Shown: positions 1 through 16,534 of the stretch, in pieces | Layout: every line of letters starts with the position of its first letter | How positions within the stretch are numbered: position 1 is the first letter of the stretch | DNA from: the human T2T-CHM13v2.0 reference genome, Homo sapiens | Length of the DNA stretch: 64,000 bases | Assembly: GCF_009914755.1 (NCBI RefSeq) | Contig: NC_060938.1 | Reading direction: 5' to 3' (one strand) | Program-made: the position numbers and the translations under genes | Notes under the pieces: generated by a model | What the model was told of the DNA's origin: nothing | The model's input: the letters and a program-made list of their open reading frames with translations, nothing else | Databases searched by the model: none

Positions 1-1925
1 AGAAAATGACCTTGTAGGTCATTTCGGGACTCTGGCTTTTACATTGAGTGTGATAGAAAGCTACTGGGGTGTCAGGGGCAGAGGAGGTATAGGATTCATA
101 TTATAACCAGATCACTCCAGCTGCAGCATTGAGAATAGATCATAGGAAGGCAAGGGTGCAAGGGAGAAGGATGCAAGAGAAGAGGCTCTAGTGGGAATCC
201 AGGGAGAGCCCCAGTGGCTTAAACGAAGATGGTGGCAGTGGACATGGAGACATGTGAATATATTTTGGAGAAAAATTCAGCAGGATTTCCTGATGTGTTG
301 ACATGCGGTATAAGAGAAAGTGTGGAATTAGTGACTCTAAGGCTTTTGTTGTTATTGTTGGGTTTGGTTTGGGGTTTTTGTTTGCTTTTTCATTTTTTCC
401 TGAGCAACTGAAAGGATAGAGTTATTTTCCAGATGGGAAGATCGTGGGTGGAAACTGTTTGGGGAAGAATATTAAAGTTTGCTTTCGGTGACTTGAGTTT
501 GATCCCCAAGCGAAGACATCCAGGAGGCGTTGGACCTGAGCATTTGGAGTTGGGAGAGGTATCTGGGCTGGGGGGGCATACGAGGGACCATTGGGGTACA
601 GATGGTGTTAAAAGCCAGAGACTACATGAAATGGGTGAAGGCGGGGTGCAGATGGAGAAGTGAAAAAGTGCAAGGACCAAGCTCTACGGCACCCCCAGAG
701 GTCTGGGGGACAAGGAGGGATCAGCAAAGTAGAGTGATGAGGAACTACAGGTGAGGTGAAAGGAAACTCAGGGCAATGTGGTGTCCTGGCAGCAAGTGTG
801 GTGAGGATGGTGAGGAAGAGAGCAAGGAGGCCAGTACCAAATGCTGCTAGGGGTCGAGTTAAAGGAGGACTGAGAAGTGACCATTGGATTTAGTAATGGG
901 GAGGCCATTTGTTACCCTGACAAGAGTAGAGGTGTTAAAGCCCACTTGGATGGGTTAACAGAGAAGGGAAGGGAGGAACTGGAGACAGAAGAGAGGAACA
1001 GGCAGTAGTTCATAGGGAACTGGGTCAAGAGGGTTTTTTTTTTGTTTTTCATTTTTTAAGTGAGAGTGATAATAGCATTTTTGTGTGAAGATGAGAATAA
1101 TACAATGAGAAGAGGAATTGTTGATGCCAGAGAGAAAGGAGAGCTGCTGGAGCAATGCCCTAGAGTAGGTGGGATGAGATGGGATCTATATGCAGGTGGG
1201 AGGTTGGCATTAGATGGGTGCACAGACAGGCCAGCTATTGTGTCAGGTGGGAGGCGGCACATGTGGGTGATGATGCTGGCAGGTATGAGTCTAATGATTT
1301 TCCTGATGGCTTCAATTTTCCCTGTGAAATAGGAAACTAAGAACTGGAGAGAAGATATCAGAGGCTTAAGGAGAGTGGATAAGGTATTATGTGGATGTCT
1401 AGGAGAGTGGGAGAGTCCATAGACCAGGGAAATGAACACAGTTGCCTGGCTGCACCAAGCACTCATGATGTTCACTATCACAAACATAAAGTGGGACTGG
1501 TGCATGTAGTTATGAGTTTTTCGCTAGCCACGTTTGGCTGTTCGGGTGCAGACACAGTTTGCTAGATTTAAACAGGGTTGAGGTGTTGCCAAGTGGGAAA
1601 GCTACAGAGAGACAAAGAAATAGAGATTAGATGCAAGGGGGCCATCATGATAATTGCCCAGGTAATGAAAGGAAGCTGAAAAGGGAAGATAGTGAGGGTC
1701 AGCAAAAGGTGGTGGGATCAGTGGATGGGTGCTGCCAGTGGGTTGAAGGTGGTGGGAGCAGTGATGGGGCTCCCAGTGGGTTGAAGGTGGTGAGAGAAGA
1801 GGATGGTCGTTCCCAGTGGGTTGAAGGCTTGTTGGAGTTGGGACACTGGGTGGTATGAACTGGAGAGTCAGGAGGTAAGTGATCAGATGCTGGGATGGAT
1901 GAAAATGAGAATATGGATGGCAAGG
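1..1925 (-). mobile_element. L2 LINE, ORF2 RT-side fragment (continues beyond window start)
   Basis: Minus-strand remnants of L2 ORF2 motifs in the correct order: LDPIP-like (~1180), PLDP (~1025), LVRVTNG-PITKSNG (~880-925), GVP-S-VL (~690), GF-HLY (~600). Confidence 0.85.
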
Positions 1926-1929
1926 TGGT

Positions 1930-2312
1930 TGTTCACCCCCAAACATGGCTGGAATACATTTTTTTGTTCCTTTTTGCAGTTAGATATGGCCAATGCTTAG
2001 TTCTGGCAAAGGAAATGTGGATGGAGATGATGTGCCCAGTTTCTAGGCCTGGCCCATAAAAAAATCATCTCATGCAATTCTATACCCTTTTTCTTTTCTG
2101 TCTGCCACTGAATGCAGAGAATCCAGCCAGGACTGTGAAGCCCCAGGGAATGGCTGCACTTCAAGTCAGAAGGAGCCTGGGTCCCTGAATCATCATGTGG
2201 AAGGCTCTCCACCCAGTTCAATGGTGCAATGGACCACAAGCAGGAACTTAATTTAGAATGTGCTTATTTTGTTAGATTTTGTAATTAAAAAATGGATCCC
2301 ACTCTGACTGAA
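1930..2312 (+). mobile_element. MLT1J-like MaLR LTR fragment interrupting the L2
   Basis: 'gcagttagatatggccaatgcttagttctggcaaaggaaatgtg' and 'agaaggagcctgggtccctgaatcatcatgtggaag' are typical of MLT1J-type LTRs. Confidence 0.7.
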
Positions 2313-2440
2313 TCAGAGATGTTGAAGTCATTGATCTGGGAGGGTATGTTCCTGGGAGTGGGTGGCTGAGGTGAGATTTCAAACAAGGTTGTTGAGGAAG
2401 AGGAGTTCAAGTGACTGAGAGGACATATTGTTGGATAAAT

Positions 2441-2490
<50 letters not shown>

Positions 2491-2900
2491 GAAATCACCA
2501 AGAATAGGGAAAGAAGTGTATAAGAGAGTGTGGCAGTGAGCCCAGAGCTAAAAGAAATCATGAGCAGGGAGTAATTCACGAGCAGAAAGTAGAAGCAACG
2601 AGAGGCAGTTAATGAGAGAAGCAGCTGAGGGATTTTAGCAAGGGATGGGGGAGGATGGTATGGAAGCAGTATCTGGGGGCCAAGAGGACGCCGCCCCATC
2701 TCCAAGCCCGGTGGTCAGGAGAATGAGGGGAAAATGTCAGCGCAGGAGAGGCTACGAGGGAGGAGGAGCAGCATCGGCAGGAGGAGCCCCAGGTGAGAGG
2801 GACATTCAGGGAAGAGACTGCAGATTACAGGGATTTTTCTAAAGAGGGTTTCTGAATCCAGACGCACATTGGAGGACTCTTGAGATGCTGGGGTCTTGTG
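2313..2900 (-). mobile_element. L2 LINE, ORF2 APE-endonuclease-side fragment
   Basis: The reverse complement at ~2489-2506 encodes ILGDFN, followed by NLSNNMSSQSLELLFLNNL (L2 'DPSNTLASQFLDLL'-like). KIPVICSLFPECPSHL near 2790-2840 resembles the ORF2 N-terminus. Confidence 0.75.
2441..2489. repeat. (TG)n microsatellite, ~24 units
   Basis: Directly visible. Confidence 0.98.
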
Positions 2901-3386
2901 ATGGGAAGATGGAGACAGAATGAAGGATGTGTGGAGCCCTACGGGGAGGAGAGAATAAAGAAGTGGGGTGACCTGGGAGCCTGGGATTCTTGTGACCATG
3001 GACACAGGTATCAAAGGCATGATGCAGTTAGCCCTGGGGAACCTGAGGCAGGTGGTGGTGATGAGGGGCAGGGAGCAGTGGTGTCTGGGACTCAGTCTTG
3101 GCTGCTGTCGCTGGAGGCAGTGAGGCCTGAGACAAATGGGATTAGTCCCACTTTAAGACCCTTCTCTGAGCCCATAGGCTTCTTCTTAACCCCTGTGCAT
3201 GGAAGGAAAAAGGTAGGACATGAGGTTGATAGATGTGATTAAGATGTGGATTCTTAATCACATCTACTAGCTTCAGCTGTCCTACTCTTGGGAGGCTCAC
3301 TTTTATACATAGAGAAAATATGTGCCATTATAACTGTGCTTCAGTGGGCAAAGTAGAGCAGACTTCATTTAAAAGGCTGCTCCATG

Positions 3387-3994
3387 CCTCTCTGCCCGGC
3401 CGCCCCGTCTGGGAAGTGAGGAGCGCCTCTGCCCGGCTGCCCCGTCTGGTAGGTGTACCCAACAGCTCCGAAGAGACAGCGACCATCGAGAACGGGCCAT
3501 GACGACGATGGCGGTTTTGTCGAAAAGAAAAGGGGGAAATGTGGGGAAAAGAAAGAGAGATCAGATTGTTACTGTGTCTGTGTAGAAAGAAGTAGACATA
3601 GGAGACTCCATTTTGTTCTGTAATAAGAAAAATTCTTCTGCCTTGGGATGCTGTTAATCTATAACCTTACCCCCAACCCCGTGCTCTCTGAAATATGTGC
3701 TGTGTCAACTCAGGGTTAAATGGATTAAGGGCGGTGCAAGATGTGCTTTGTTAAACAGATGCTTGAAGGCAGCATGCTCGTTAAGAGTCATCACCACTCC
3801 CTAATCTCAAGTACCCAGGGACACAAACACTGCGGAAGGCCGCAGGGACCTTTGCCTAGGTAAACCAGAGACCTTTGTTCACGTGTTTATCTGCTGACCT
3901 TCTCTCCACTATTATCCTATGACCCTGCCACATCCCCCTCTCTGAGAAACACCCAAGAATGATCAATAAATACTAAAAAAAAAAAAAAAAAAAA
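3387..3994 (+). mobile_element. 5'-truncated SVA (old SVA_A/B type): ~2 VNTR units, SINE-R, polyA
   Basis: VNTR 'gccccgtctgggaagtgaggagcgcctctgcccgg'; SINE-R 'gtgtacccaacagctccgaagagacagcgaccatcgagaacgggcc'; AATAAA and A-tail; 16-bp TSD aaaaggctgctccatg at 3371-3386 and 3995-4010; TT/AAAA endonuclease site. Confidence 0.96.
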
Positions 3995-4124
3995 AAAAGG
4001 CTGCTCCATGTTCATTACAGAAAACAAAGTCAATGTGCTGTTGACATTATTGCACATGACTGCACAGCTGTGCACAAGCTCCACCCACCAGGTGAGTCTT
4101 ACCACTTTCCCTAAGTCCTGGTGC

Positions 4125-4288
4125 CTTGCTTCTCACAGAGTGGTCCATGGGCCAGCAGCATTGGCATCACCTGGATGCTTGTTAGAAGTGCAGGATCTCA
4201 GCAAGACCCAGACATACTGAATCCTCATCTGCATTTTAACTAGATCCCCAGGTGATCCTTAGGCACGTTAAGCCTGAGGAAGCACTGT
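4125..4288. mobile_element. MER5A/B hAT-Charlie MITE
   Basis: 'ccagcagcattggcatcacctgg...ttgttagaa...ctgcattttaac...ccccaggtgat...agcactg'. Confidence 0.8.
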
Positions 4289-4643
4289 GATGCATTTCTT
4301 GTTATTAGTAGGAACAAAGCAGGTGCCTCCAAGAAGAAAAAGGCAAATGAAAGAAGCAGCTCCAGGAAAGATGACATGTTACTCATCAGCCTTAAAATTC
4401 CAAGTTCAATGCATTTTTCCCCCCAGTGCTGGCAGTGTATTGGATTCATGTGAACCTCATTAAAAATTAAAACAAACAAGTTCTAACTTGCATGACTCCA
4501 AAAACATTTCATTGTTTCTTTAGGGAGAAATAGATGAGAACAGACAAAGTTGATTACACAGAATAAGGACAAAACAACTCTGAACTTTTAACCTGCATGA
4601 GTTGTCAGTAGAATCTCGGAATCATAGAATTCCAGAGTTTAGA

Positions 4644-4822
4644 GCAGTTAGCTCAACACTGGCTACACATCAGAGTCACCTGGGGAACTTTCCAAAAAGT
4701 ACAAAATACTAGTGCTGAGCCCCAATCCCAGATATTCTATCTGAGGAAAGAAACGGGCATCAGGTATTTTTCAAAAGCTCTCTGGGTGATTCTTATATGC
4801 AGCAAGGATTGAGATTCACTGG
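4644..4822. mobile_element. MER5A/B hAT-Charlie MITE
   Basis: 'ctggctacacatcagagtcacctggggaactt...aaagctctctgggtgattctta...gattgagattcactg'. Confidence 0.75.
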
Positions 4823-5110
4823 TAGAAATAAGATGCAAGACACATATGTGATTTAAAATTATCTAGGACCCAAATTAAGTAGGTAGAAACAAATGAAATT
4901 AATTTCAATAACGTATCTTAATCCAATATGTCCAAAATATTATCATTTGAAATGTAGTTAATATAAAAAACTAATAATGATTTTTTTCTCAGTAAGACTT
5001 TAACATCCAGTGTGTATTTTACACATGTAGAACATCTCAATTCAGTTTAGCCACATTTCAAGGGTTCAATAGCCACATGTGGCTAATGACTGTCATAGTG
5101 GACAGTGTAG
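4823..5110. mobile_element. MER33/MER3-type hAT-Charlie element
   Basis: Ends in 'tagccacatttcaagggttcaatagccacatgtggctaatgactgtcatagtggacagtg'. Confidence 0.75.
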
Positions 5111-6030
5111 TTCCAAGTAATAACAGTAATGCTAGTCTATGAAAGATAGGTTTCCACCTCTGGAAAACAAAATCATTGCCCATTTAAAGTAGAAGAGCCA
5201 GTTCAGAAGATAATGAGATGTAATTCAGTATTATTTCTTGCTTGCAAACAGCCTCTTAAAATCATCGTGGAAGTTCAATGAAGAGGTAAGATTTAGAAAG
5301 TTTGCAAAATTTCTTCCAAAAAGGGAAATGTCTGGGATTTACGTGACAGAGGCAAACCCTTACGTGATGCTATGTTAAGGCATGTAAATGAATACTGTGC
5401 TGAGTTTCTCAGCAACCTATGGTGTTGGGAAGGGCTGATCTTCTGATTTTGATCTAGGAAACGATAGGAATATAGTCAATGGCTACATTTTCTTTTTCTC
5501 TCTTGGAATCAACCATTATAAAGAGCAGGCATCTTTGGGGATTTTGGTGTCTGCACAGCTGAATCAGCATCGGAATCAGGAATGTGCGAGGATAACATTC
5601 TGCGGTTTGGCATTCCTGTCTCAATTCCTCCACTTCTTAGAAAAGAAGCGTCACTCACTGATATTCTCCCAAACCAGCTGTTGAGTATAATAAAGACCTT
5701 CCTCTTAGTATTAACATTAGATTGTATTCTTAGGCTCTAATTTTTACCACGGGATTTTTCCCTAAAGAAATTAGAGAAATCACTTAGCCATTGGCATGTG
5801 TTAACTGTAACCAGGTCATGTAGCTCTTCTGAGCCTGAGGCAAATAAACAGAAAATCTTAGCGACATGTGCTGAGAACTAGGTTAAACAAATTTCTCAGG
5901 ATGGGTTGCAGAATAGTTTGCTGGTGCTGGCAATGAAGTGTAGAGGCACTTAAGAGGGATGATTTTTCTCGCTTTTTACCAAAATGTCTTTGCTTCCCTC
6001 ATAAGCCACTTTCTTCCGAAAGCCAACCAT

Positions 6031-6357
<327 letters not shown>

Positions 6358-6770
6358 GACCATGGTTTTGTAAAGAGAGAACATTGAAAACATAATTGGT
6401 CTTTGGTCTATCTAGTTTCTCCATTTTGTACCCTTCTTTCACCTTTGCCAGTAATACTCTTTTCTCTCGGAAGACCCTGGAATGTTTCTCTAGTGTCAAA
6501 ATTCATCCCAGCTAAGACTTGTGAACTTAACACCAAAGAGTAACCTGTTTATATCACAGTGCAAATTACACAGAACTATCACTCTTCCAGTGCTTTTGTG
6601 ATAAAGAAATAAAGCACTATCAGAAGAATACCATGCATCCGCTAGGTAGTGAAGATTTTTAAAAAGTGGGCACAAAATTAGAACAAATGGAACCCTGAAA
6701 CCGCACTACATAGGCAAATAGCTGAGTACAGATTGAAGTTAGAGAACCCTCGAGGGGCTAGGTATGAGTC

Positions 6771-6803
6771 TGCAATTATGATAGGCGGCCATCAGGGGGC
6801 ATT
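6771..6803 (+). promoter_or_regulatory. Candidate CTCF site with upstream (ZF9-11) module
   Basis: Core CGGCCATCAGGGGGCATT (6786-6803) versus consensus TGGCCACCAGGGGGCGC; TGCAATTAT lies 6 bp upstream; the site is in non-repeat DNA. Confidence 0.7.
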
Positions 6804-7024
6804 TCAGCGCCTTGGTCGTGTGGCCAAAGGATCAGGTTTACCATAATCAGAGAATAAGGTAATTTTTACTTCTTTAAAAATAGAGTAGTTTAAATAAAAT
6901 TATCAATTAGGGTTTAAAGATGATTCATATGAGCAAGTTCTTAAACCAAAGCCAAGGAAAAAGTGCGCTACCTGCCTCACTATGCGGTTTTCATAATTCA
7001 GGGTAGCCTTGCTTATGGCCCTAA

Positions 7025-7228
<204 letters not shown>

Positions 7229-8996: not shown

Positions 8997-9642
8997 AAAA
9001 ATTTAACTATTATTTTAGGTTCGGGGTACATGTGCAGGTTTGTTACACAGGTAAACTTGTGTCACAGGGTTTGCTGTACAGATTATTTCATCACCCAAGT
9101 ACTAAGCCTAGTACCAAATACCTATTTTTTTCCAATCTTCTCCCTCCTCCCACCCTCCATGCTCCAATAGGCTCTAGTGTCTGTTGCTCCCCAATTTGTG
9201 TCTATGAGTTCTTATCATTTAGCTCCCACTTACAAGCGAAAACATGTAGTACTTGGTTTTTTGTTCCTGCATTAGTTTGCTAGGGATGACAGCCTCCAGC
9301 TCCATCCATGTTCCTGGAAAATACATGATCTCATTCTTTTTTTATGGCTGCATAGTATTCCATGGTATATATGTACCACATTTTCTTTATCCAGTCTACC
9401 ACTGATGGGCATTTAGATTGATTCCTTGTCTTTGCTATTGTGAGTAGTGCTGCAATTAGCATATGTGTGCGTGTGTCTTTATGGTAGAAAGATTTATATT
9501 CCTTTGTATATATACCCAGTAATGGAATTGCTGGGTTGAATGGTAGTTCTATTTTAAGTTTTTTGAGGAATTGCCACAGTGCTTTGCACAATGGTTGAAC
9601 TAATTTACACTCCCACCAGGAGTGTATAAGCATTCCCTTTTC
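8997..9642 (-). mobile_element. 5'-truncated L1 (L1PA13-16 type) 3' end
   Basis: L1 3'UTR 'ggggtacatgtgcaggtttgttac...ggtaaact'; ORF2 C-terminus (..WYIYTMEYYAAIKK); TSD aaatcagagaaaa at 8984-8996 and 9643-9655. Confidence 0.92.
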
Positions 9643-10250
9643 AAATCAGAGAAAATTTCAAGGAGGTGGTCGATGATGCCAAACTTTTCTTAGAGTGGTG
9701 ATGGTGGAGGGCAAAATTTGTCTTTAAAATATGAAATTTCAATAAGAAGATTAGGGTGATTGCAATAGCAGTAACAACAGGAACAATAACTCACATTTAT
9801 TTCCTTCCATGTGGCCTTCTGATTGAATTTGCTATACGTTGGGGAAATTATTTTCAGTCTTCCTCATGCACATGAAAAAAGTCTGACAAAAAGTAACAAT
9901 ATGTAAAAAAGTAGGTGTTTAATATTTATAACACTAAGTAGCACGTTTGCTTTCTCTCAGAAGAAAATTTAACAGTATAATTTGCCAAGAGGAGGTAATC
10001 TAATTATCACGTCCACCCTGAATAGCATACTGCCAAGCCTAGGAACTGTGCTGGTGAACATTTAAAAATATTTTCTCAATGCACATCTTCTAAACACTGT
10101 GTACTCTGCTGTAATATACCCTACTGTAACACTTTTCCTAGGATTTATACTGGGTATATGTCAGTGATTTAATTACATTTTTTAAATGGATGCTATTTTT
10201 AGGATCCTCCTGAGCCTTTAAATTCTAGTTGACTATATATTGTTTAATAC

Positions 10251-10622
10251 CATATTAGTCGGTTCTCATGCTGCTCTAAGGATGTACACCAGACTGGATA
10301 ATTTATAAAGGAAAGAAGTTTAATTGACTCACTCTTCCACAGGGCTGGGGAGGCCTCAGGAAACTTACAGTCATGGTAGAAGGGGAAGCAAACATGTCCT
10401 TCTTCAAAAGGTAGCAGGAAAGAGAAGAATGAGCGAAGGGGAGAAAAGCCCCTTACAAAACCCTCATATCTCATGAGAACTCACTGACTGTCACAAGAAC
10501 AGCATGAGGGTAACCGCCCCCATGATTCAATTATCTCCCACCATGTCCCTCCCACAACACATGGGAATTCAAGATACAATTCAAGATGAGATTTGGGTGG
10601 GGACATAGCCAAACCATTATCA
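10251..10622 (-). mobile_element. THE1C MaLR solo LTR (inside the inverted block)
   Basis: 'gaaggggaagcaaacatgtccttcttc', 'agcatgagggtaaccgcccccatgattcaatta', ends '...gccaaaccattatca'. Confidence 0.9.
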
Positions 10623-13590
10623 CCCACCCCTAACACCCCTGTTTGCTTCTAGACCTATAACAATAGACTCAGGTCCCAGCAGGCCCCTAGAGGTGAGGTT
10701 CAGAGTGTGACCCATGAGGAGGGGCACTACGCTCCAAAATAACTGCTTGAGTTTTCTAATTTATGTAAGCAGAAATCTGGAGAACAGGAATGGGAATGGA
10801 TATTAAGGGTGTGGGGTAATGGTGGAAGGAAGATAAAGTTGGATCAGGCTGAATTTATTGATTTGGGCCCACTAAGCAGGGATTCTACATTTAATGTTGC
10901 AGCTTGGGGAGTTAAAAAAGGTTCTAATAGTTTATTTGCTTCGTTAGCTGAAATATGGATGAAAAGATGGCCCACTATAAGTGACCTAGAAATGCCTGAT
11001 CTCCCTTGGTTTAATGTAGAGGAAGGGATCCAAAGGCTTAGGGATATGGGAACACTAGAGTGGTTTAGTCACATTAGACCTGCTCATCCCAGCTGGGAGA
11101 GTCCAGAAGACATATCCTTCACTAATACCTTGTAAAACAAATTTGTGAAGGAGGCATCTGCTTCCTTGAAGAGCTCTGTGATTGTTCTCTATATGCCAGA
11201 TCTCACAGTGGGAACCGCAGTCACAATTACAAAACTGAAATACAATGGGAATAATTGAATCTCAAGGTAGCTGGGGCCAAGTGGCAGCCCTCAACCTTCA
11301 AAGGCAAGGTGGGCATAGTTACCGTAATGGACAGCAAAGGCAAAGCAGCAATCAGAATAGTCTGACTCATGTAGAGCTCTGGCATTGGCTAATTCATCAT
11401 GATGTTCCTAGAAGTGAAATTGATAGGAAGCCTACTGCATTCTTACTTAATCTATATAAGCAGAAAACTTCCAGGTTGAGTGGACAAAGACTAATTTGAA
11501 TTATAAAATGAGAGAATCATGGCCCCTCAATGAATTTCAAGACCTGAATGAGTTTACAGACCCAGAACCCCTTGAATGAAGGGGAGTCCGGATCCCCTTG
11601 AGGAAAGACCCCACTACATCACTGATAATTTATGCTGTTAATCTTTCTCCCATCCTTCCCCAAGAGACCTCTGGCCTTTTACCAGAGTGTCTGTGCACTG
11701 GGGAAAGGGGAATTATCAGAACTTTTGGGAACTACTGGGCACTGGCTCTGAGTTGACGCAGATTCCAGGGGACCCAAAACGTCACTGTGGTCCTCCAGTT
11801 AAAGTAAGGGCTTATTGAGGTCAGGTAATTAATGGAGTTTTAGCTCAGGTCTGACTTACAGTGGGTCCAGTGGGTCCCCAGACTCATCCTGGGGTCATTT
11901 CCCCAGTGCCAGAATGCATAATGGGCATAGACAGTCTGTCATACTTAGCAGCTCACAGAACCCCCACATTGGCTCCCTGACTGGTAAGGTGAGGGCTATT
12001 ATGGTGGGAAAGGTCAAATGGAAGCCATTAGAGCTGCCTCTACCTAGAAAAATTGTAAATCAAAACCAATATCGCATCCCTGGAGGGACTGCAGAGATTA
12101 GCGCCACCATCAAGGACTTAAAAGATGCAGGGGTGGTGATTCCTACCACATCTCCATTCAACTCTTTTATTTGGCCTATGCAGAAGATAGACGGATCTTA
12201 GAGAATGACAGTGTATTATCGTAAGCTTAACTAATTGGTGACTCCAATTACAGCTGCTGTATCAGATGTGGTTTCATTGCTTGAGCAAATTCACATATCT
12301 CCTGGTACCTGGTGGGCAGCCATTAATTTGGCAAATGCCTTTTCTCCATTCCTGTCCATAAGGCCCACCGGAAGCAATATGCCTTCAGCTGGCAAGGCCA
12401 GCAATATACCTTCACTGTCCTCCCTCAGGGGTATATCAACTCTGGCTTTATGTCATAATCTTGTCTGGAGAGATCTTGATCGCTTTTCCCTTCCACAAGA
12501 TATCACACTGGTCCATTATATTGATGGCATTATGGTGATTGGACCCAGTGAGTAAGAAGTAGCAAACACACTGGACATATTGGTGAGACATTTGTGTGCC
12601 AGAGGATGGGAAATAAATCTGACTAAAATTCAGGGACCCTCTACCTCAGTAAAATTTTTAGGGGCCCAGCAATGTGTGGCCTGTTGAGATATTACTTCTA
12701 AGGTGAAGGACAAGTTGTTGCATTTGGCCCCTCCTACAACCAAGAAAGAGGCACAGCGAGTCCTCTTTGTGGGCCTATTTGGATTTTGTAGGCAACATTT
12801 TCCTCATTTGGGTGTGTTACTCTGGCTCATTTATTGAGTGACCCGAAAGGCTGCCAGTTTTGAATGGGGTCCAGAACAGGAGAAGGCTCTGCAACAGGTC
12901 CAGGCTGCTGTGCAAGCTGCTCTGCCACTTGAGCCATATGACCCCCCAGATCCAATGGTGCTTGAGGTGTCAGTGGCAGATAGGGATGCTGTTTGGAGCC
13001 TTTGGTAGGCTCCCATAGGTGAATCACAGCAGAGGCCTCTAGGATTTTGGAGCCAGGCCCTGTGATCTTCTGCAGATAACTACTCTCCTTTTGAGAGACA
13101 GCTCTTTGTGGGTTTACTGGGCTTTGGTGGAAATTGAATGTTTGACTATGGATCATCAAGTCACCATGCAACCTTAACTGCCTATATTAACTGGGTGCTT
13201 TCTGACCCATCTAGCCATAAAGTGGGTCATGCACAGCAGCATTCCATCATCAAATGGAAGTGGTATATACATGATCAGACTCAAGCAGGCCCTGAAGGCA
13301 CGAGTAAGTTACATGAGGAAGTGGCTCAAATGCCCATGGTCTCCACTCCTGCCACTCTGCCTTCTTTCCCCCAGCCTGCACCAATGGCCTCATGGGGAGT
13401 TCCCTATGATCAGTTGACAGAGGAAGAGAAGACTAGGGCCTGGTGCACAGATGGCTCTGCATGATATGCAGGCACCACGTGAAAGTGGACAGCTGCAGCA
13501 CTACAGCCCCTTTCTAGGACATCCCTGAAGGACAGTGGCAAAGGGAAATCTTCCCAGTGAGCAGAACTTTGAGCAGTGGACCTGGTTGTA
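10623..13590 (+). pseudogene. HERV-L internal region: decayed 3' gag, protease, RT and start of RNase H
   Basis: Gag 'WGNGGRKIKLDQAEFIDLGPLSRDS'; protease LLGTGSELT (catalytic D->G, ~11732); RT 'QYRIPGG...TTSPFNS' and 'HYIDG' (YIDD-like); RNase H 'AWCTDGSA'; many stops and frameshifts. Confidence 0.93.
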
Positions 13591-14058
13591 CATTTGAGTC
13601 AGTGGACTGGGAGCGGCAGACCCACCCTCAATCTGAGTGGGCACCATCTAACCACCTTCCAGTGCAGCTGGAATAAAGCAGGCAGGAGAAGACAGAAGAG
13701 CAGACTTGCTGAGTCTTCACGCCTTCATCTTTCTCCTGTGCTGGATGCTTGCTGCCCTTGAATATCGAACTCCAAATTCTTCAGCTTTTGGACTCTTGGA
13801 CTTACACCAGTGGTTTGCCAGGGGCTTTCAGGCCTTTGGCCACAGACTGAAGGCTGTGCTCTTGGCTTCCCTACTTTTGAGGTTTTGGGACTTGGACTGA
13901 TCCACCACTGGCTTCCTTGCTACTAAACTTGCAGATGGCCTATTGTGGGACTTTACCTTGTAATCGTGTGAGTCCATTCTCCTTAATAAACCCCTGTTCA
14001 TATATACATCTATCCTATTATTAATAGTCGGTCCCTCTAGAGAACCCTGATTAGTACA
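13591..14058 (+). mobile_element. MLT2A(2) 3' LTR of HERV-L, lacking its first ~95 bp
   Basis: 'catttgagtcagtggactgggagcggcagacccaccctcaatctg' through 'ctctagagaaccctgattagtaca'. Confidence 0.9.
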
Positions 14059-14490
14059 GTGGGTGGTGAGGAGAATCAGCATTGCCTTGTCTGGCAACTG
14101 CCTCAGGGGAGGCCATCACTGTTGCCTCAGGCAGCTCAGGGTTTATCTCCTCAGATAAAGGTGGAAAGGCTGATGGCAGCCTGGATGGAAGAAAGGATGT
14201 TGTCACCACTGGGGCTGGGGAGGCTGTTTCCTCTGGCAAAAAAAGGCTCATCAGAGTTTACAAGCTCAGTGTCCCCAGCTTCATCATGGTCCTCCCACAC
14301 ATCCCCATTCCAAGTTGCAGGGTCCCATTCTTTTCCAATCAATACCCTCACTTTGACAGTAGACACCTGGTGAGACAGAGTGCACCTTTTGGTGCAGGTC
14401 AGCCACTTGCATGATAAGAGCTTGTGCCTGATTTTCCACATTTTCAGTCCTTTGTCCATAGGAGATAAGACTCTCACTCAGGGCAATTCT
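14059..14490 (-). pseudogene. HERV-L 5' gag fragment (original orientation)
   Basis: 'VSTVKVRVLIGKEWDPATWNGDVWED' and 'SEEINPELPEATVMASPEAVARQGNADSP' on the minus strand; this is the gag part immediately upstream of the piece starting at 10623. Confidence 0.92.
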
Positions 14491-14940
14491 ACGATAAGCT
14501 GTCTGCAAGCTGAGGAGCAAGGAAGCCCGTGGTGGATCAGTCCAAGTTCTAAAACCTCAAAAATAGGGAAGCCTACAGTGCAGCCTTCACTGTGGCCAAA
14601 GGCCTGAGAGCCCCTGGCAAACCAATAACGTAAGTCCAAGAGTCCAAAAGCTGAAGAACTTGGAGTCTGATATTCAAGGGCAGGAAGCATCCAGCATGAG
14701 AGAAAGATGAAGGCCAGAAGACTCCGCAAGTCTGCTTTTCTATCTTCTCCTGCCTGCTTTATTCTAGCTGCACTGGCAGTTGATTGGATGGTGCCCACCC
14801 AGATTAATGGTGGGTCTGCCTCTCCCAGTCCGCTGACTCAAATGTTAATCTCCTTTGGCAACACCCTCACAGACACACCCAGGAACAGTACTTTGCATCC
14901 TTCAATGCAATCAAGTTGACATTCGGTATTAACCATAACA
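14491..14940 (-). mobile_element. MLT2A(2) 5' LTR of HERV-L, 3' end deleted
   Basis: Reverse complement starts tgttatggttaatacc...caacttgattgcattgaaggatgcaaagta; it shares idiosyncrasies with the 3' LTR (gaatatc, gactgatccacca). Confidence 0.9.
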
Positions 14941-15023
14941 AATAACAAAATCTGGTTTCTTGGAGTATGAACATTTACTGTTATAGTTTGCTGGACTTGC
15001 TTCATTTAGAAAATGTAAAACTA

Positions 15024-15305
15024 GGCTGGTCATGGTGGCTCATGCCTGTAAATCCAACACTTTGGGAGGCTGAGGCAGGAGGATCACTTGAGGCCAGGAG
15101 TTTGAGACAAGCCTGAACAACATAAGCAGACCTTTATAAAAAATTGCCAGGCATGGTGGTGCCTGCCTGCCATCCTAGCTACTCAGGAGGCTGAAGCCAG
15201 AGGATCGATGGAGCCCAGGAGCTCAAGTCTGCAGTGAGTTATGATTGTTTGCACCATTGCACTCCAGCATGAGTATTAGAGTGAGACCCTATCTCTTAAA
15301 AAAAA
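15024..15305 (+). mobile_element. AluJ
   Basis: 'ggaggatcacttgaggccaggagtttgagac' and 'gagcccaggagctcaagtctgcagtgag'. Confidence 0.9.
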
Positions 15306-15491
15306 GGAATTATACTATTACCATGCAATAAATCACTGTAAGCAATTTGGTATATTTTTTTCAGACTTGTTTCCATATATTTCTTTTTATATAGTTGTAA
15401 TCATTCCACACATGTAATATTGGCACTGTTCTTTAATATGAAATTATTAATAACTTTTATTTTACTACATGGTCTTCAGAACCATGGCTTT

Positions 15492-15565
15492 AATTATTAT
15501 ATAATAATTAATTATTATGATATATATTATATATCATATATATATCTATGATATAGATATATGAT
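15492..15565. repeat. AT-rich (TA)n-like low-complexity tract
   Basis: Directly visible. Confidence 0.85.
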
Positions 15566-15763
15566 GATTTACCTCTTTATTCCCTTCTAACTGGACATTA
15601 GTTTCTTACTTTTTTACTATTAAAATGGCAGCATTTAGCATATTTAAGTATGTAGCTTTTTCATATTTAATATTTTTCCTTACACTTAGAAGTTTAGCTG
15701 AGGATTAAAGGGCACAGGCATGTTTATAGCATTTGGTAAACAACGCCAAATTATTTCCCAAAT

Positions 15764-15792
15764 GGACACACAGACACACAGACACAGACACA

Positions 15793-15825
<33 letters not shown>
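15764..15825. repeat. Compound (CACAGA)n/(CA)n microsatellite
   Basis: Directly visible. Confidence 0.95.
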
Positions 15826-15827
<2 letters not shown>

Positions 15828-16534
15828 ATCTGTTTATGTGAGTGTATGATTTTGCTAAGAGAAAAAAATGCCTTGTTTTATTTTGTATTTCTCTGATTTC
15901 TTGTAGGTTTGAATATTTACCTAATTGCATCTCTCTGATGTTGTTCGCTTGTTCAGCTCTTTTGTGTTGGTCTGTTTCTAGGAAAATGATTCTTTTGTTT
16001 ACAGTTAGTTTAAGATGGTTACACTAAAGTTAGATTATTTATTACTTTCTGATACTCCTCTGTCCCCACCAAAATATGGACTTCAGTCTAAAGATACGCT
16101 TTTGAAATGCAACATTTTATCAATGAGCTTTAAAAGGGCTTAATAATGTTTGTACTCAAACAGAATAAACCACCTGAAATACTTCCTTAAGAAAATCCCC
16201 AGAGGTCCTTAAGAAGAGAGAGATCTTCAAGAAGTAAAGCTTGAGATAATACACGAGCAGCTCAAACTACTTACAAAAAATAGTGGGGCAATCTTACATC
16301 ATTTATTTAAAATAATTAGGTATTGATAGACATGAAAATCTAAATGCAAGATTCCTTAGCATCTCATACTTACCAGTTTCTTTTCCTTCCATGAAAACTG
16401 CACTTTCTTTCAAATGAAAGCACAGAGGGAGAAAATGGAAAGTCTGGGGGAACAGCCAATGACCGGTGAGTGTGTTGAAAGTTCTAGGATTTGCTGCCTC
16501 CTGTGTTTGACTCATCCATTACATACCTCTTGCC

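What the first reader, a model, noticed from the sequence alone, without database searches (positions are those of the whole stretch)
10246..14945. 3.8-kb inversion with breakpoints exactly at the termini of two different LTR families (THE1C and MLT2A)
Seen: HERV-L gag is cut in two and the halves point in opposite directions. The minus piece ends ...ctcaccaCCCAC (14059) and the plus piece begins CCCACccctaac (10623), so the 5-bp THE1C TSD survives as an inverted pair: cccac after THE1C and gtggg after the MLT2A LTR. The provirus TSD is also split: aatac (10246-10250) now abuts THE1C, and aataa (14941-14945) follows the 5' LTR. Flipping 10251-14058 restores a normal minus-strand provirus with THE1C inserted in gag. 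The two exchanged ends are nearly identical (THE1C gagaac-c-gactaatatg versus MLT2A gagaac-cct-gattagtaca). Inference: either recombination or template switching over only ~17 bp of shared LTR terminus, or an integrase-linked event using heterologous ends; MaLRs are thought to borrow ERV-L machinery. This would be an unusual route to structural variation.
Basis: partly seen in the sequence, partly recalled or inferred. Interest (0 to 1): 0.8.

Follow-up and report, generated by a model that had tools for sequence, protein, structure and literature searches.

The report
Retrovirus fossil flipped at its ends
A long-dead retrovirus copy upstream of FRMD6 has most of its body turned around, and the turned piece runs from the virus's own end to the end of a second retroelement lodged inside it; this is either a fossil of a misfired integration reaction or a rare inversion guided by ten shared bases.

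Summary
A HERV-L-type provirus is split in its gag region. The 5' LTR and first gag piece lie on the minus strand (14059-14940). The rest of gag, pol and the 3' LTR lie on the plus strand (10623-14058). A THE1-type solo LTR (10251-10622, minus) caps the far end. In other HERV-L copies the two gag pieces abut with exactly 5 shared bases, so CCCAC/GTGGG is a real inverted 5-bp duplication. The outer flanks match 4 of 5.

One correction: the last 10 bases of the two swapped LTR ends are the same in both families. The exchange can therefore only be placed within those 10 bases, not "exactly at the termini".

Two histories give this same sequence.
- (a) Integration-coupled: THE1 and HERV-L DNA ends were paired in mixed integrase complexes. 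One pair inserted into the virus's own gag, as in autointegration; the other inserted into the chromosome.
- (b) An ordinary nested THE1 insertion, later inverted through the 10-base inverted homology.

No longer homology exists, about 9 equally good chance repeats lie nearby, and THE1 is not detectably younger than the provirus. I lean slightly to (a), 0.40 against 0.35. Orthologous loci in other primates would decide; they could not be examined here.

The parts
10246..10250 (.). Left copy of the outer 5-bp target-site duplication (aatac); it now abuts the THE1 3' end
   Evidence: It matches aataa at 14941-14945 in 4 of 5 positions.
10251..10622 (-). THE1-type (MaLR) solo LTR, 372 nt and complete end to end. 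The 5' end TGATAATGG... faces gag. The 3' end ...GACTAATATG faces the flank.
   Evidence: 39 other scored copies at 82-85% identity, from 7753 first-look candidates; comparator ends. The terminal dinucleotide is TG here, CA in 24 of 29 comparators.
10623..10627 (+). CCCAC, one copy of the 5-bp gag target site
   Evidence: these 5 comparator bases are shared by both gag pieces, and uninterrupted copies have the site once.
10623..13589 (+). HERV-L internal region: the rest of gag, then pro and pol with reverse transcriptase and RNase H. It has many stops and frameshifts and is colinear with comparator L072 positions 2161-5125.
   Evidence: 2991-column alignment at 86.8% identity. RVT_1 (E 1.9e-6) and RT_RNaseH_2 (E 9.7e-7), both just under Pfam's cut-offs. 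57 stops in frame 1.
13590..14058 (+). MLT2A-type 3' LTR lacking about its first 95 nt. It ends ...GAGAACCCTGATTAGTACA. About 1600 nt of internal sequence before it is also missing.
   Evidence: inverted repeat with 14491-14845; L072 jumps from 5125 to 6821; family 3' ends.
14059..14063 (-). GTGGG, the inverted second copy of the gag target site, directly after the 3' LTR terminus
14059..14490 (-). HERV-L internal region, first gag piece (comparator L072 positions 1735-2165). About 400 nt of internal sequence between it and the LTR is missing.
   Evidence: 85.9% over 432 columns. (39 other copies match up to 14059 or 14067 and no further).
14491..14940 (-). MLT2A-type 5' LTR lacking about its last 110 nt. 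Its outer end TGTTATGG... faces the right flank.
   Evidence: LTR-LTR K2P distance 0.130 over 355 sites.
14941..14945 (.). Right copy of the outer 5-bp target-site duplication (aataa)

Best explanation
A fossil of a misfired integration, not a later inversion.

Inferred sequence of events. A HERV-L DNA copy and a THE1 DNA copy were together in one particle or preintegration complex. THE1 is a non-autonomous relative whose LTR ends are the same as HERV-L's. Integrase paired the four DNA ends across the two molecules instead of within each.
- The pair made of the HERV-L 3' (U5) end and the THE1 5' (U3) end attacked the HERV-L DNA's own gag with the usual 5-bp stagger, as in autointegration. This turned the gag-pol-3'LTR portion around, left the 5-bp site as an inverted pair, and hung THE1 on the new end.
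- The resulting linear molecule had the HERV-L 5' end and the THE1 3' end as its only free ends. That pair integrated into chromosome 14 and made the outer 5-bp duplication.
- Later, THE1 collapsed to a solo LTR and the provirus lost two internal stretches.

Shown: all four junctions sit at LTR ends, the two 5-bp duplications, and the shared end sequences. Inferred: co-packaging, mixed end pairing and the order of events.

No present-day function is implied. The element is dead and lies between lncRNA genes.
For: 1. Every junction is at an LTR terminus with no base lost or added.
2. The inner duplication is inverted, and its length of 5 bp is the length these families make. 16 of 21 THE1 comparators have a 5-bp duplication matching at 4 or 5 positions. 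Autointegration is known to give inversion circles with an inverted portion between the LTRs (passages read in PMC7197481, and PMC2644782).
3. Both inferred reactions pair a U3 end with a U5 end, as a normal integration does. This follows from the layout.
4. Both families share the terminal 10-mer (16 of 29 and 15 of 29 copies) and have similar 5' ends. One integrase could therefore act on both.
5. THE1 is not detectably younger than the provirus. Its private branch is 0.099 (bootstrap 0.070-0.128) against 0.070 (0.045-0.098) for the 3' LTR. THE1 was the younger in 8% of bootstrap pairs. LTR-LTR distance is 0.130.
6. A generic homology-driven inversion has little to work with. No THE1-MLT2A similarity exists beyond the ends (local score 20 against a shuffle mean of 19.2, sd 2.2). 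Nine chance perfect inverted repeats of 10 nt or more lie in the same 4.7 kb.
7. Neither chimeric junction occurs elsewhere in the genome (0 of 39 other scored hits span either). It is not a copied or retrotransposed arrangement.
8. My rough base-rate estimate, made from recalled numbers and from no call, expects far fewer than one short-repeat inversion of this exact kind genome-wide.
Against: - No such germ-line product has been described. Four searches found autointegration only as dead-end circles.
- It needs several unproven steps: two complete DNAs in one particle, mixed end pairing, then a second successful integration.
- The THE1 3' end that integrase would have joined to the chromosome reads TG, not the CA integrase needs. 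CA is kept in 24 of 29 comparators. Two later substitutions must be assumed, next to the one mismatch in the outer duplication.
- The outer duplication is 4 of 5.
- No second example turned up in the 58 LTR loci I could look at (0 of 58). That sample is far too small to count against it.
- The sequence itself is equally well predicted by the rival below.
Confidence: 0.4

Rival explanations
1. Ordinary nested insertion followed by an inversion. HERV-L integrated on the minus strand. A THE1 element then integrated antisense into its gag, making a direct 5-bp duplication. That placed the THE1 3' end and the HERV-L 3' LTR end as inverted copies of the same 10 bases (16 of 19 with the GAGAAC block), several kb apart. 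A reciprocal exchange or a double template switch within those bases then flipped everything between them. The breakpoints only look as if they are at the termini because the shared bases are the termini.
For: - The terminal 10-mer is identical at family level, so a homology-guided exchange would leave exactly this sequence with no loss or gain.
- Each step is of a known kind. Solo LTRs inside proviruses in sense or antisense are common (passages read in PMC4724089). Clean inversions flanked by short perfect or near-perfect inverted repeats of 3 to 75 nt occur in the human-chimpanzee comparison (passages read in PMC8755829).
- The two junction 10-mers carry 4 changes in 20 bases, plus a mismatch in the adjoining duplication. 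That is somewhat above the 7-10% background and could be a scar of error-prone synthesis.
Against: - The documented repeat-flanked inversions are 17-33 nt long. Here the arms were at least 3.4 kb apart.
- No homology fit for ordinary homologous recombination exists.
- About 9 other chance inverted repeats of 10 nt or more were equally available in the region, so using this one is about a 1-in-10 coincidence at best.
- The exchange must have come early, before the two 10-mers diverged. They now match at 6 of 10 positions.
- THE1 is not detectably younger than the provirus, which leaves little time between the three events.
Confidence: 0.35
2. End-directed breakage and rejoining after integration. 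Some nuclease or repair intermediate cut at or within 2 nt of both LTR termini of the nested arrangement, and the fragment was religated in reverse by end joining. Candidates include an unrepaired THE1 integration intermediate, or a retroviral integrase acting on integrated ends.
For: The left junction is not canonical. It has TG instead of CA, next to the mismatched base of the outer duplication. That is 2-3 adjacent changes, as end joining can leave. One-ended integration completed by host enzymes is known to cause inversions of adjacent DNA (passages read in PMC5041404).
Against: - No known activity makes double-strand cuts at the ends of integrated LTRs.
- The right junction is perfect.
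- Two random breaks at exact termini would be an extreme coincidence.
- The host-completed integrations in PMC5041404 usually truncate the viral end and give large duplications or deletions. Neither is seen here.
Confidence: 0.08
3. Assembly artefact: the 3.8-kb segment is misoriented in the T2T-CHM13 assembly.
For: None from any call. It could not be tested here because no reads and no second assembly were available.
Against: The inverted LTR arms differ by 11-16%, so they cannot be confused in assembly. The segment is far shorter than the long reads used for such assemblies (recalled). A misjoin landing base-exactly on two LTR termini with a matching inverted 5-mer is implausible.
Confidence: 0.02

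Closest known systems
Autointegration inversion circles of retroviruses and LTR retrotransposons (HIV-1, Ty1, Arabidopsis SISYPHUS)
   Same: An LTR end is joined to an internal site of the element's own DNA, and the portion between is inverted. The reaction is the same chemistry as chromosomal integration (passages read in PMC2644782, and PMC7197481). An inverted duplication of the target at the family's usual length is what I expect from that chemistry. I recall this, and saw it in no passage.
   Different: Known products are dead-end circles made with the element's own two ends, and none is reported in a genome. Here the second end belongs to a different element (THE1), the product is linear, and it sits in the germ line between a 5-bp flanking duplication.
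Aberrant retroviral integrations with host rearrangements (ASLV end mutants; HIV-1 with integrase inhibitors or resistant integrase)
   Same: Integration-coupled inversions, deletions and duplications next to a provirus, and viral ends joined to extra viral DNA in either orientation (PMC5041404).
   Different: In those cases one end is joined by host enzymes. It is usually truncated, and the duplications run to hundreds or thousands of bp. Here all ends are complete and both duplications are 5 bp.
Inversions flanked by short inverted repeats (human-chimpanzee microinversions)
   Same: Clean, balanced inversion with perfect or near-perfect inverted repeats at both edges, explained by double template switching or break-induced replication (PMC8755829).
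   Different: Those are 17-33 nt long. This one is 3.8 kb now, and probably longer before the internal deletions. Its repeat is the functional terminus of two mobile elements.
Alternative transposition of DNA transposons such as Ac/Ds, where ends of two elements are used in one reaction (recalled; no paper read)
   Same: Ends of two separate elements are paired by one transposase. The products include inversions bounded by an element end and a new target site.
   Different: Those enzymes cut integrated elements out of the chromosome. Retroviral integrase works on free DNA ends, so the mixing here would have to occur before integration.

Membership tests
HERV-L (ERV-L) provirus with MLT2A-type LTRs | Two related LTRs with TG...CA ends flanking an internal region that encodes reverse transcriptase | tested here: met
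   LTR pair with K2P 0.130. Outer ends TGTTATGG... and ...GTACA. RVT_1 and RT_RNaseH_2 matches at E about 1e-6, just under the cut-offs. Colinear with two-LTR copies L072 and L073. The pairing of HERVL with MLT2A1/2 is from the Repbase table in PMC5753468. No repeat library was available to name the family.
HERV-L (ERV-L) provirus with MLT2A-type LTRs | 5-bp target-site duplication at the outer ends | tested here: inconclusive
   aatac against aataa, 4 of 5. No empty site was available for comparison.
HERV-L (ERV-L) provirus with MLT2A-type LTRs | The split site lies in gag | tested here: inconclusive
   The site is about 830 nt into the internal region and upstream of RT. No gag family matched in Pfam and no solved structure matched. 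Calling it gag rests on position and on recall.
THE1 (MaLR) solo LTR | An LTR of about 370 nt with the family's ends and a 5-bp duplication | tested here: met
   372 nt, 82-85% identical to 39 other scored copies. The 5' end is as in comparators. The 3' end matches except for the last two bases. Its matching 5-mer is found 3.4 kb away in inverted orientation. Subfamily C was not tested.
Autointegration-type inversion product | LTR terminus joined to an internal site of the same element, with the segment between inverted | tested here: met
   3' LTR terminus at 14058 joined to gag at 14059.
Autointegration-type inversion product | Inverted duplication of the internal target at the family's usual length | tested here: met
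   CCCAC and GTGGG, with a 5-bp overlap in 6 of 9 comparators plus L072 and L073.
Autointegration-type inversion product | The element's own other end is joined to the other side of the target, closing a circle | tested here: not met
   The other side of the target is joined to the THE1 5' end, not to the HERV-L 5' LTR. This is therefore not a classical autointegrant. At most it is a mixed-end variant.
Autointegration-type inversion product | A non-inverted state never existed at the locus | not testable with these tools
   No other primate genome or human haplotype is held here.
Inversion mediated by inverted repeats | Inverted repeats at both breakpoints and a balanced product | tested here: met
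   Shared terminal 10-mer at family level, and no loss or gain at either junction.
Inversion mediated by inverted repeats | Homology long enough for ordinary homologous recombination | tested here: not met
   Nothing beyond the termini.
Inversion mediated by inverted repeats | An ancestral non-inverted allele exists | not testable with these tools
   Same limitation as above.

The most novel reading that the evidence does not exclude
This locus is the first germ-line fossil of an autointegration-type reaction. A HERV-L DNA and a THE1 (MaLR) DNA shared one particle, their ends were paired crosswise by one integrase, and the rearranged product still integrated. If so, it is physical evidence that MaLRs travelled inside ERV-L particles and used ERV-L integrase. 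It would also show that mixed-end integration is a route to structural variation.
Probability: 0.4. Interest if true: 0.8.

Novelty: new variant of a known kind. Interest (0 to 1): 0.6.

Why it matters
MaLRs make up about 4% of the human genome (figure from PMC4724089, passage read) and encode no enzymes of their own. That ERV-L moved them is an old inference (recalled), resting on similarity and timing. A product in which a THE1 end and a HERV-L end were used together in one 5-bp staggered reaction would be direct evidence for it. It would also show that the "suicide" pathway of autointegration can leave heritable products.

If the rival is right instead, the locus is a rare kilobase-scale inversion guided by only 10 bases. 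That would be of modest interest for how small inversions arise.

Either way the locus comes with a cheap decisive test: the same site in other primates.

Tried and rejected
- Ordinary homologous recombination between the THE1 and MLT2A LTRs: no similarity beyond the ends.
- Two independent proviruses: rejected by the exact 5-bp overlap of the gag pieces and the complementary, non-overlapping pieces.
- A copied or retrotransposed chimeric unit, or a surviving source copy with THE1 at this gag site: 0 of 39 other scored hits span either junction.
- LTR tree as proof of one provirus: inconclusive. The two window LTRs fall in a clade of 4 tips with support 0.54 and are each other's 4th and 6th nearest among 30. 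The two-LTR comparators L072 and L073 did not pass my length filter, so they gave no control.
- Structured RNA: no Rfam match in 9000-16000.
- Naming gag: no Pfam gag family and no solved relative. There was a weak DUF5535 match only.
- A second example: I looked for HERV-L internal sequence next to LTR ends in the 58 LTR loci already fetched. 4 of 29 MLT2A loci have it, all in the normal orientation. 0 of 29 THE1 loci have it.
- Literature: searches found no report of a genome-resident autointegration product or of an inverted target-site duplication at an LTR element. One search gave only general reviews on MaLR and ERV-L.
- Garfinkel et al. 2006 on Ty1 autointegration is not held. I saw it only as cited in other papers.
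- Supplements were not opened. Published inversion call sets might list this locus if it varies among apes or humans.


Full report
**What is there**

Reading 9600-15600 and aligning the parts gives this order on the plus strand:
- flank ending aatac (10246-10250)
- a complete 372-nt THE1-type solo LTR on the minus strand (10251-10622)
- HERV-L internal sequence on the plus strand (10623-13589)
- an MLT2A-type LTR on the plus strand, lacking about its first 95 nt (13590-14058)
- HERV-L internal sequence on the minus strand (14059-14490)
- an MLT2A-type LTR on the minus strand, lacking about its last 110 nt (14491-14940)
- flank beginning aataa (14941-14945)

The two LTRs form inverted repeats of 256 nt (89%) and 104 nt (84%). 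No repeat library was available. The Repbase table in PMC5753468 (passage read) pairs HERVL with MLT2A1/2, and THE1_I with THE1A-D under MaLR.

**Is the split real?**

I did not build the re-inverted sequence. Instead I aligned each piece separately to uninterrupted HERV-L copies found in the same genome.
- In 6 of 9 copies the minus piece ends, and the plus piece begins, on the same 5 comparator bases. In the other 3 the alignments stop short of the site.
- Two further copies, L072 and L073, show the same overlap.
- All 9 copies carry the site once.
- The reading frame runs on from one piece into the other.
- Against the near full-length copy L072 (LTRs at 890-1329 and 6726-7153), the window's pieces map to LTR 890-1188, internal 1735-2165 (minus), internal 2161-5125 (plus) and the 3' LTR. 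They are complementary and overlap only in the 5 bases.

The pieces are therefore one provirus, and CCCAC (10623-10627) with GTGGG (14059-14063) is a true inverted 5-bp duplication.

The provirus is long dead. Frame 1 of the plus piece has 57 stops. About 510 nt are missing across the 5' LTR/internal border, and about 1700 nt across the internal/3' LTR border. Reverse transcriptase and RNase H domains are still recognisable. No gag family or solved structure matched, so "gag" rests on position.

**The ends**
- THE1 comparators end in a 5-bp duplication that matches at 4 or 5 positions in 16 of 21 copies with both ends aligned.
- The window copy's own two flanks match at only 2 of 5. Its missing partner is the 5-mer beyond the 3' LTR.
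- The commonest terminal 10-mer is GACTAATACA in both families: 16 of 29 THE1 and 15 of 29 MLT2A copies (raw ends). A shared GAGAAC block precedes it.

This is the key correction to the finding. Because the last 10 bases were the same, an exchange anywhere within them gives the same product. "Exactly at the termini" cannot be told apart from "within the terminal 10 bases".

The window copies now read GACTAATATG (THE1) and GATTAGTACA (MLT2A), which is 4 changes in 20 bases. The THE1 end has TG where 24 of 29 comparators have CA and none has TG. With the neighbouring mismatch in the outer duplication, that makes 2-3 adjacent odd bases at the left junction. I cannot explain them.

**What can be excluded**
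- Ordinary homologous recombination. The THE1 and MLT2A LTRs share nothing beyond the ends (local score 20 against a shuffle mean of 19.2, sd 2.2).
- A duplicated or retrotransposed chimeric unit, or a surviving source copy. No other scored hit spans either junction (0 of 39 each).
- Two independent proviruses.

The LTR tree neither helps nor hurts. The family is a star-like burst, and the two LTRs are no closer to each other (0.130) than to the best unrelated copies (0.108-0.119).

**Two histories predict the same sequence**

*History A, integration-coupled.* Four DNA ends from two molecules are paired crosswise.
- The HERV-L 3' end and the THE1 5' end make a concerted 5-bp staggered attack on the HERV-L DNA's own gag. 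Of the two possible outcomes, one deletes a circle. The other inverts the gag-pol-3'LTR portion, leaves the target as an inverted pair, and attaches THE1 by its 5' end.
- The linear product has the HERV-L 5' end and the THE1 3' end free. These integrate into the chromosome and make the outer 5-bp duplication.
- Reading the window's minus strand gives exactly this order. Both pairs are U3 with U5.
- Autointegration and its inversion circles are well known (PMC2644782; PMC7197481), but only as dead-end circles made by one element's own two ends.

*History B, insertion then inversion.* HERV-L integrates, THE1 integrates antisense into gag, and the segment between the two inverted 10-base termini then flips by a reciprocal exchange or double template switch. 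Clean inversions flanked by short inverted repeats do occur, but the documented ones are 17-33 nt long (PMC8755829).

**Weighing them**

For A:
- Base-exact use of four LTR ends.
- Two duplications of the family's length.
- No loss or gain at the junctions.
- Little else to guide a generic inversion to this spot. Nine chance perfect inverted repeats of 10 nt or more, with arms at least 1 kb apart, lie in the same 4.7 kb. The other 7 of the 16 counted are LTR-LTR matches.
- Timing. The THE1 LTR's private branch is 0.099 (0.070-0.128), against 0.070 (0.045-0.098) for the 3' LTR and 0.065 for half the LTR-LTR distance. THE1 came out younger in only 8% of bootstrap pairs. A needs equal ages. B needs THE1 to arrive after the provirus, and the flip to follow before the 10-mers decayed.
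- The comparators were the best 29 hits of each search. These branch lengths are therefore biased and include unknown differences among source elements.

For B:
- Every step is of a known kind.
- The shared 10-mer explains the location without any new biology.
- The odd bases at the junctions could be a repair scar.

Against A:
- It has never been described.
- It needs two complete DNAs in one particle.
- It needs the non-canonical TG end to be a later change.

My rough base-rate reasoning uses recalled numbers and no call. It expects well under one B-type event of this exact kind in the genome, and puts A somewhere between rare and several. That is why I lean to A, but only slightly: A 0.40, B 0.35, end-directed breakage and rejoining 0.08, assembly error 0.02, and the rest unknown.

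**Age**

The LTR-LTR K2P distance is 0.130 (0.109 with CpG sites masked). With a recalled neutral rate of about 1.5-2.2e-9 per site per year, this is roughly 30-45 million years. The event predates the apes, and Old World monkeys, perhaps also New World monkeys, should carry it. I could not look at them, so the decisive test remains undone.

**Verdict**

The structure is a new variant of known kinds of event, either autointegration or aberrant integration, or a repeat-guided inversion. It is one locus, old and functionless. Its interest lies in what it may record about how MaLRs and ERV-L moved.

Noticed in passing
window 10245-10257: The left junction forms a small palindrome: TAATA, then CCA, then TATTA. 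It arises because the flank's last bases are the reverse complement of the THE1 end. With the family's usual CA end, the arms would have been 6 nt with a 1-nt spacer. This may be chance or a hint about how this junction was made.
   Followed up: partly
window 10250-10252: Two to three adjacent bases differ from expectation. The THE1 terminal dinucleotide is TG instead of CA (CA in 24 of 29 comparators, TG in 0 of 29). The neighbouring base is the one mismatch between the two outer duplication copies.
   Followed up: partly
window 13589/13590 and 14490/14491: There are two internal deletions, each spanning an LTR/internal border. About 1600 nt of internal 3' sequence plus about 95 nt of the 3' LTR start are missing. 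About 110 nt of the 5' LTR end plus about 400 nt of internal start are also missing. Neither touches the exchange points.
   Followed up: partly
window about 11366-11488 (plus strand, frame of 10624): Weak match to Pfam DUF5535 (E 1.1e-4, 22.8 bits, below the cut-off of 25) in the gag-side part of the provirus.
   Followed up: no
window 10613-10638 and 10798-10823: A 26-nt inverted repeat, 77% complementary, whose left arm spans the junction between the THE1 5' end and gag. It is one of 200 weak pairs listed and is probably chance.
   Followed up: no
window about 15020-15310: An Alu-like element with an A-rich tail lies about 80 nt to the right of the provirus. The call is from reading the sequence and from recall.
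   Followed up: no
loci L012-L040 and L042-L070: The THE1 copies nearest to this one differ more from each other (mean K2P 0.156) than the MLT2A copies nearest to this provirus's LTR do (0.112). In this sample the THE1 relatives are at least as old or as varied as the HERV-L burst, so the two families' activity overlapped.
   Followed up: partly
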